DNA from: Eledone cirrhosa
Taxonomy: Eukaryota
Direction: 5' to 3'
Assembly (NCBI GenBank): GCA_964016885.1
Contig: OZ024763.1
Span: 21,638,001-21,702,000 of the forward strand
Length of the DNA: 64,000 bases
This document shows, piece after piece, positions 10,067-10,260 of this stretch. The first letter of the stretch is position 1. Every line of letters starts with the position of its first letter. The notes under the pieces are model-generated. The model was given only the letters and a program-made list of their open reading frames with translations, was not told where the DNA came from and did no database searches. The translations under genes were made by a program, and so were the position numbers.

Positions 10067-10072
<6 letters not shown>

Positions 10073-10258
10073 TGTAATAAACAACATAAGATAATTATTT
10101 CATTTACCAGTGGTTTCTTGAAAGCAACCAAAATTGCTTTCATTCATCAGAATGAAATGAAATAATTATCTTATGTTGTTTATTACATAACTATTAAGCT
10201 CTGTAACCTACATAGAGCACTCTTTTTTCCTGGACCTTTCCGACGGAATCACTTCATT

Positions 10259-10260
<2 letters not shown>
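10067..10260. mobile_element. Asymmetric hairpin element with a hammerhead in the loop (PLE-like)
   Basis: 38-bp arms tagttatgtaataaacaacataagataattatttcatt / reverse complement; right arm has ~65-bp extra tail. Confidence 0.7.
10097..10158 (-). ncRNA. Type I hammerhead ribozyme motif
   Basis: atttcatt-CTGATGA-a-tgaaagcaa-ttttgg-ttgctttca-a-GAAA-ccactgg-TA-aatgaaat; 8-bp stem I, 9-bp stem II (A:A at its base), GUA triplet. Confidence 0.7.

What the first reader, a model, noticed from the sequence alone, without database searches (positions are those of the whole stretch)
10067..10260. Hairpin element whose fold-back point is a hammerhead ribozyme
Seen: the loop of this inverted repeat is a complete minus-strand hammerhead (10097-10158). 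The plus-strand arm begins with aatgaaataattatc, exactly the sequence 3' of the predicted GUA cleavage site, and only that arm carries a ~65-bp tail. Known: PLEs carry hammerheads in their pseudo-LTRs and often integrate with an inverted, tail-less partial copy. Inference: ribozyme cleavage or ribozyme stems set the point where cDNA synthesis folds back, giving tiny non-coding ribozyme-hairpin retroelements.
Basis: partly seen in the sequence, partly recalled or inferred. Interest (0 to 1): 0.8.

Follow-up and report, generated by a model that had tools for sequence, protein, structure and literature searches.

The report
Penelope insertion scar with hammerhead loop
This 192-base hairpin with a hammerhead-ribozyme motif in its loop is real, but it is most likely the ordinary head-to-head insertion scar of a Penelope-type jumping gene rather than a new element; only this one among similar hairpins nearby turns at the predicted cut site, and the hairpin is predicted to misfold the ribozyme.

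Summary
Observation confirmed: a perfect 39-bp inverted repeat (10067-10105/10155-10193), a minus-strand type I hammerhead motif (10097-10158, predicted cut after 10105), a plus arm starting at the cut (10156) and a 65-bp one-sided tail, all in a (TA)n tract.

The sequence is a high-copy repeat, but most reads continue upstream past the fold point (291 loose ends at 10157, depth about 360), so the hairpin is not the family form. The family ends at both 10194 and 10258, like the two reverse-transcription starts of a lizard Penelope element.

Cleavage does not generally set the pivot: 1 of 8 hammerhead-associated hairpins in the window, and 0 of 8 other junctions of this family, start at the cut. 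Pivots fall more often at stem II (4 of 4 hairpins of a second family), which fits published self-priming at palindromes. In the hairpin transcript the active fold is predicted about 8.6 kcal/mol disfavoured. No Rfam hammerhead hit and no Penelope ORF were found. The scan reported the same pattern in three other genomes. Verdict: new member of a known kind, low interest.

The parts
10029..10066 (.). (TA)n target tract, inside an array of a roughly 100-bp host minisatellite
   Evidence: neighbouring units anchored at 9908, 10014 and 10332
10067..10157 (-). inverted, tail-less, 5'-truncated copy: from the family's inner 3' end (+38) through the hammerhead to the outer edge of stem I (about -52)
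   Evidence: other copies continue past 10157 into a different upstream sequence (291 reads of X14, 1 contig of X5)
10097..10158 (-). type I hammerhead motif: core 10150-10144, GAAA 10117-10114, GUA 10107-10105; lacks G10.1-C11.1
   Evidence: core kept with variable N7 and altered stem II in other copies; no Rfam hit
10104..10105 (-). predicted cleavage site (after A17 = 10105)
   Evidence: position from hammerhead core numbering; cleavage not tested
10155..10157 (.). head-to-head junction with a 2-3 nt overlap, 5 nt out of register with stem I
   Evidence: sequence
10156..10193 (+). sense arm, +1 to +38 after the predicted cut
   Evidence: perfect complement of 10067-10104
10194..10258 (+). 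65-bp one-sided tail between the family's two 3' termini
   Evidence: copies pass into (TA)n behind 10194 (275 reads, 20 contigs) and behind 10258 (19 contigs of X1, 1 of X5)
10259..10289 (.). (CA)8(TA)7 right flank, then the next minisatellite unit

Best explanation
This is most likely a single integration scar of a Penelope-like retroelement: two severely 5'-shortened copies of its terminal-repeat end, joined head to head inside a TA microsatellite, one with the 65-bp tail and one without. SHOWN: insertion into (TA)n; two fixed family 3' ends 65 bp apart; most copies carry further upstream sequence; junctions of other copies lie elsewhere. INFERRED, by analogy with the Anolis Poseidon protein (which cuts both strands of AT-rich DNA and starts reverse transcription at two sites flanking the tail): each end of the cut target primed one cDNA, at +103 and at +38. 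The +38 cDNA ran through an uncleaved hammerhead and stopped at the outer edge of stem I. Its 3' end re-annealed near its own stem I partner by a 2-3 nt overlap, copied back +1 to +38, and was joined to the tail cDNA. On this reading the match to the cut site follows from stem I geometry (stem I's 3' strand starts at +1 by definition) or from chance, not from catalysis. Within this reading I put self-priming fold-back at about 55% and end-joining of two full cDNAs at about 45%. The resulting hairpin is predicted to be a dead end for the ribozyme.
For: Architecture matches published PLE insertion units: inverted 5'-truncated copy, one-sided tail, hammerhead, (TA)n bias (PMC8557442 passages; PMC3846280 passages). 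Two RT start sites delimit the tail, and hammerhead catalysis is dispensable for insertion in vitro (PMC11167929); 2408 contigs (X1) and 3977 reads (X14) laid; termini at 10194 and 10258; 291 reads continue upstream of 10157 at a depth of about 350-360; at most 12 of 60 reads scored at 10160 carry this locus's base; no listed contig piece spans the junction (19 of about 2450 shown). The 10127-to-10195 joint is an inverted piece plus tail only, as two priming sites would give. The window holds 10 such hairpins from 7 unrelated sequence types, and at least 7 have an extra stretch on one side. The active fold has probability 0.17 alone, 0.04 in the left copy and about 1e-6 in the full hairpin.
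Against: No reverse transcriptase/GIY-YIG ORF is linked to this family: none among 91 of 104 non-repetitive frames in the window, and no genome is held, so PLE membership rests on anatomy and no clade can be named. The tail (65 bp; 55-139 bp to the next microsatellite in 6 other hairpins) is longer than the 30-40 bp in print. A fold-back in the 7-8 bp stem I register would not leave the extra 5 nt seen here, so the junction needs a weaker 2-3 nt register or slippage. Both arm ends do coincide with the two ends of stem I, which a purely random truncation would not predict. RAD reads sample loci unevenly, and joints could be seen only inside the 196 bases laid.
Confidence: 0.78

Rival explanations
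1. Cleavage run-off: the sense arm is a cDNA that ran off the 5' end of a self-cleaved RNA (+1) and was joined to a cDNA made from an uncleaved copy, so catalysis fixed this breakpoint.
For: The arm starts at 0 to +3 of the predicted cut. The core is conserved across copies. One other junction has its inverted piece ending at -1 (10106).
Against: 1 of 8 hammerhead-associated hairpins in the window starts at the cut; the others start at -10, -25, -33 and -34 to -36. Eight other family junctions have sense-arm starts at +12, +18, +18, +40, +50, +71, -22 and -52. The chance of at least one hit in a 4-nt window among 8 draws over 90 nt is 0.30. Metazoan PLE hammerheads cleave weakly and not as monomers (PMC4209133). 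No RNA-seq ends were seen at the Anolis cut site (PMC11167929).
Confidence: 0.12
2. A non-autonomous ribozyme-hairpin retroelement that is transcribed, self-cleaves and is copied as a unit.
For: The sequence is high-copy. One different junction (10127 to 10195) has depth 96.8 in X1, against 5-17 for the listed pieces, so some junction forms may recur or be re-amplified. Family B occurs as a hairpin in 4 of 6 window copies.
Against: Most reads continue upstream of 10157; at most 12 reads could span this junction. The inverted arm pairs A17 and displaces stem I. Family-B hairpins have four different loops, their arms share copy-specific variants, and none of the 6 copies keeps CUGANGA, which points to formation anew at each insertion. 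There are no tandem hammerhead units as in retrozymes.
Confidence: 0.07
3. A post-insertion inversion or a DNA fold-back element (MITE-like) that happens to contain a hammerhead-like sequence.
For: Perfect arms in an unstable microsatellite region; two hairpins in the window (54111, 5709) have no hammerhead motif.
Against: The arms end at a family-wide terminus (10194) and the tail at a second one (10258). One-sided tails recur in unrelated families. The core is conserved while stem II sequences differ.
Confidence: 0.03

Closest known systems
Insertion unit of endonuclease-bearing Penelope-like elements (Craig et al. 2021, PMC8557442; Arkhipova et al. 2013, PMC3846280)
   Same: Inverted 5'-truncated copy joined head to head, tail on one arm only, type I hammerhead near the 3' end, microsatellite target; self-priming at palindromic inverted junctions already proposed.
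   Different: Both copies are cut down to about 100 bp with no ORF; tail 65 bp rather than 30-40; one arm starts at the predicted cut site; clade not determinable.
Poseidon_Ac (PAc) of Anolis carolinensis (Frangieh et al. 2024, PMC11167929)
   Same: Two fixed termini downstream of the hammerhead cut site that delimit a tail; AT-rich target.
   Different: No ORF start is evident here. PAc starts were mapped biochemically, whereas here they are inferred from copy ends. The parts of that paper I read do not map inversion breakpoints.
Metazoan PLE hammerheads with short palindromic helix III (Cervera and de la Pena 2014, PMC4209133)
   Same: Type I topology, intact core, short palindromic helix III suggesting dimer action.
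   Different: No G10.1-C11.1 pair; long 9-10 bp helix II; at this locus the extra arm is predicted to misfold it.
Non-LTR retrozymes (bioRxiv 10.64898/2026.07.22.740005)
   Same: Non-coding, type I hammerhead, PLE-derived.
   Different: Defined there as tandem repeats with at least two hammerhead units; this is one inverted, single-hammerhead insertion.

Membership tests
Type I hammerhead ribozyme | Conserved core CUGANGA, GAAA, NUH in order | tested here: met
   N7 is U, G or C among copies; no change listed at the other core positions except G8 (106 reads from 2 starts), with 41 variant rows not shown
Type I hammerhead ribozyme | Three helices around the core | tested here: met
   minimum-energy fold of 10097-10158 alone; not met in the full hairpin transcript
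Type I hammerhead ribozyme | G10.1-C11.1 closing pair | tested here: not met
   A.A at this locus; U or C opposite A in nearly all other reads (10143 rows); called highly conserved in PMC4209133
Type I hammerhead ribozyme | Match to an Rfam hammerhead model | tested here: not met
Type I hammerhead ribozyme | Self-cleavage | not testable with these tools
   needs in vitro assay
Penelope-like element insertion | Adjacent inverted 5'-truncated copy, head to head | tested here: met
Penelope-like element insertion | Optional tail on one arm between two fixed termini | tested here: met
   termini 10194 and 10258; 65 bp, longer than the 30-40 bp in print
Penelope-like element insertion | AT-rich or microsatellite target | tested here: met
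Penelope-like element insertion | Parent element with RT plus GIY-YIG ORF | tested here: inconclusive
   none in 91 of 104 frames scanned in the window; whole genome not available, upstream family sequence seen for only 30 bases
Penelope-like element insertion | Direct partial tandem forming a pseudo-LTR | not testable with these tools
   locus too truncated; no long copy obtained
Non-LTR retrozyme | At least two tandem units each with a hammerhead | tested here: not met
   single motif, no second copy in the window

The most novel reading that the evidence does not exclude
The palindromes at Penelope head-to-head junctions are the hammerhead's own stems. Nascent cDNA re-forms stem II (mostly) or stem I (this locus) as a DNA hairpin and self-primes, so the ribozyme's fold, not its catalysis, sets the inversion pivot. 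This would give PLE hammerheads a structural role in integration and fit the finding that catalysis is dispensable in vitro. Support: 4 of 4 family-B hairpins pivot at -34 to -36, both non-inverted B copies also start in that stem, and 5 of 8 family-A junctions break at the stem II loop edge, one as a symmetric turn. Weaknesses: small numbers, B lacks the 5' core, clipping bias at 10127, and hairpins without a hammerhead have similar arm lengths.
Probability: 0.3. Interest if true: 0.55.

Novelty: new member of a known kind. Interest (0 to 1): 0.22.

Why it matters
As it stands the locus is an ordinary example of how Penelope-like elements land, from an unclassified family. Its value is as a data point: this genome carries about one such scar per 6 kb from many families, so an assembly would allow a large-scale test of two open questions, how PLE inverted junctions form and what their hammerheads are for. 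If pivots track hammerhead stems across families, that is a modest mechanistic advance on the published self-priming idea.

Tried and rejected
Rfam: 0 hits at gathering; only chance miRNA-like or snoRNA-like matches at relaxed thresholds.

More copies of this family: none elsewhere in the window; 0 hits in metagenome contigs, prokaryote genomes and viral contigs. No whole genome is held for this window, so genome-wide breakpoint mapping could not be run.

No RNA holder was listed; this says nothing about expression.

Read-end piles at 10093, 10132/10135, 10164 and 10249 first looked like element ends. I rejected them because each sits on an AATT in a RAD library (10247-10250 is AATT in the family majority). 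The enzyme is inferred, not on record.

The joint 10067 to 10202 was dropped from the junction count as a normal, un-inverted copy. Three of the 13 arm pairs were dropped: one is the outer continuation of 53550, and two pair separate family-B copies.

The half-hammerhead motif alone is weak: it arose in 9 to 185 of 500 shuffles depending on the locus. The 34150 assignment (103 of 500) is therefore tentative, and 34467 was placed by homology because the script did not score it. An over-masking script missed this repeat and was replaced.

No PLE protein domain was found in the window. The Lunse 2017 paper on dimeric PLE hammerheads was not held and is known only through a review passage.

Literature searches showed no paper that maps PLE inversion pivots to hammerhead stems or the cut site. 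The library is partial, and supplements and figures were not read.

Full report
OBSERVATION. The window is microsatellite-rich animal-type DNA; the organism was not established. Positions 10067-10105 and 10155-10193 form a perfect 39-bp inverted repeat, far beyond chance (maximum 22 in 1000 resamples). On the minus strand, 10158-10097 has the hammerhead core in type I order, with an 8-bp stem I, a 9-10 bp stem II, a short palindromic stem III and GUA at 10107-10105. This stretch alone folds into the three-helix form, and it was the only descriptor hit in the window with stem I of at least 6 bp (1 of 30 shuffles reached that). The plus arm starts at 0 to +3 of the predicted cut and alone carries a 65-bp tail. 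The motif lacks G10.1-C11.1, and Rfam does not recognise it.

THE FAMILY. No genome is held, so I laid 4 of 16 listed runs on 10067-10262 at 85% likeness. 2408 contigs of X1, 3977 RAD reads of X14, 23 contigs of X5 and 3 of X8 were laid. Counts are reads or contigs, not loci, and 41 variant rows, 176 loose-end rows and 2430 pieces were not shown. Four results follow.

(a) The core is kept while N7 and stem II vary. The commonest loose end behind 10127 (718 reads) reads as a CUGAGGA core with a fully paired stem II, and X1 and X8 show a CUGACGA variant with a different stem II. This locus's base after A9 is rare (at most 6 of 351 reads).

(b) Copies end in (TA)n at two places, 10194 (275 reads, 20 contigs) and 10258 (19 contigs of X1, 1 of X5): the tail-less and tailed termini.

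(c) At 10157, 291 reads continue into a different upstream sequence, at a depth of about 350-360. At most 12 of 60 reads scored at 10160 have this locus's base. The hairpin is therefore a minority form.

(d) After dropping one un-inverted read-through, 8 other junctions remain. Their sense arms start at +12, +18, +18, +40, +50, +71, -22 and -52; none starts at 0 to +3. Five break at 10126/10127, the stem II loop edge, but this locus differs from the majority just there, which can bias clipping, and one of the five lies at an AATT site. Read-end piles at AATT sites were discarded as library artefacts.

THE NEIGHBOURHOOD. The window holds 10 hairpins of this kind after dropping 3 of 13 arm pairs. 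Most have (TA)n on one side and an extra stretch of 55-139 bp on the other. Eight carry a full or half hammerhead motif. The shared arms begin at 0 (this locus), -34 to -36 (four copies of family B, in a stem-II-like hairpin with four different loops), -10 (34150, weak motif), -25 (58466) and -33 (53585). Two have no motif. So 1 of 8 turns at the cut; with uniform breakpoints over 90 nt the chance of at least one is 0.30. No PLE protein domain was found in 91 of 104 non-repetitive frames; the only RT is a LINE-type one at 26964-29087.

FOLDING. In a minus-strand transcript of the whole hairpin, the long helix forms 5 nt out of register with stem I and pairs A17. The cleavage-competent ensemble is 8.6 kcal/mol higher (P about 1e-6), and P is 0.01 when only +8 has been made. 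P is 0.04 for the left copy alone and 0.17 for the motif alone. These are nearest-neighbour predictions without tertiary contacts or dimers. A negative cleavage assay on this locus would therefore not show that the family ribozyme is dead.

MECHANISM. Shown: target, two termini, variable junctions. Inferred: a PLE protein cut TA-rich DNA and primed two cDNAs, at +103 and +38, as PAc does in vitro (PMC11167929; parts 1-2 of 4 read). The +38 cDNA crossed an uncleaved hammerhead, stopped at the edge of stem I and was turned or joined by a 2-3 nt overlap. Because stem I's 3' strand begins at +1, a stem I-guided turn lands at the cut site without any cleavage. The extra 5 nt show that the best stem I register was not used cleanly, which neither this model nor cleavage run-off explains without slippage. 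The 10127-to-10195 joint (inverted piece plus tail only) resembles LINE-1 twin priming (recalled, not read). Confidence 0.78 for the scar reading; rivals 0.12 (cleavage run-off), 0.07 (unit element), 0.03 (DNA fold-back).

KNOWN WORK. Inverted truncated copies, one-sided tails and microsatellite bias: PMC8557442 (passages) and PMC8969392 (passage). Self-priming at palindromic head-to-head junctions, there proposed on an antisense template: PMC3846280 (passages). Weak, dimer-dependent PLE hammerheads: PMC4209133 (abstract and passages) and PMC6765202 (passages). Retrozymes as PLE derivatives: bioRxiv 10.64898/2026.07.22.740005 (part 1 of 5). I found no paper mapping pivots onto hammerhead stems. 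The library is partial, and unread supplements of these papers, for example the PAc genomic-end figures, may bear on this. Three earlier scan reports on other genomes reached the same reading; they are unchecked and not independent support.

VERDICT. Real feature, likely a known kind of PLE insertion scar. Cleavage-set pivot is not supported as a rule; a stem-guided pivot remains an open, testable lead (probability 0.3). Interest 0.22.

Noticed in passing
window 1781-1920 (-), 33398-33603, 34467-34659, 44355-44542, 59436-59575 (-), 59988-60185: Family B, six copies: 3' half of a hammerhead-like motif with a long palindromic stem III; four are hairpins pivoting in a stem-II-like hairpin, with a tail of about 77-91 bp; none keeps CUGANGA.
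   Followed up: partly
window 58420-58617: Older hairpin (81% arms) with a minus-strand hammerhead core at 58535; the other arm starts inside the core; a related solo copy lies near 34800-34900.
   Followed up: partly
window 53495-54056: Long inverted repeat with a hammerhead core in both arms (53741 minus; 53812 plus, mutated); junction 5' of the core; the spacer holds a splice-donor-like motif; the inversion extends into simple-repeat flanks.
   Followed up: partly
window 34150-34449, 54111-54315, 5709-5928, 57120-57289, 53349-53507: Further hairpins beside TA tracts, some with a one-sided extension, with weak or no hammerhead motif.
   Followed up: partly
window 51291-51400, 57330-57447, 59325-59403: Non-inverted copies of another hammerhead-bearing family; two begin just 5' of stem I.
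   Followed up: no
window 91 (-), 1046 (-), 39565 (-), 58668 (+): More CUGAUGA cores in other repeats; the 1046 family has shorter copies at 39842, 40466 and 44919.
   Followed up: no
joint 10127 to 10195: Inverted piece joined directly to the tail, depth 96.8 in X1 and 2 reads in X14: a possibly recurrent two-primer product.
   Followed up: partly
window 26964-30020 (-): Broken LINE-type retrotransposon: RVT_1 (E 8.5e-27) and zf-RVT.
   Followed up: no
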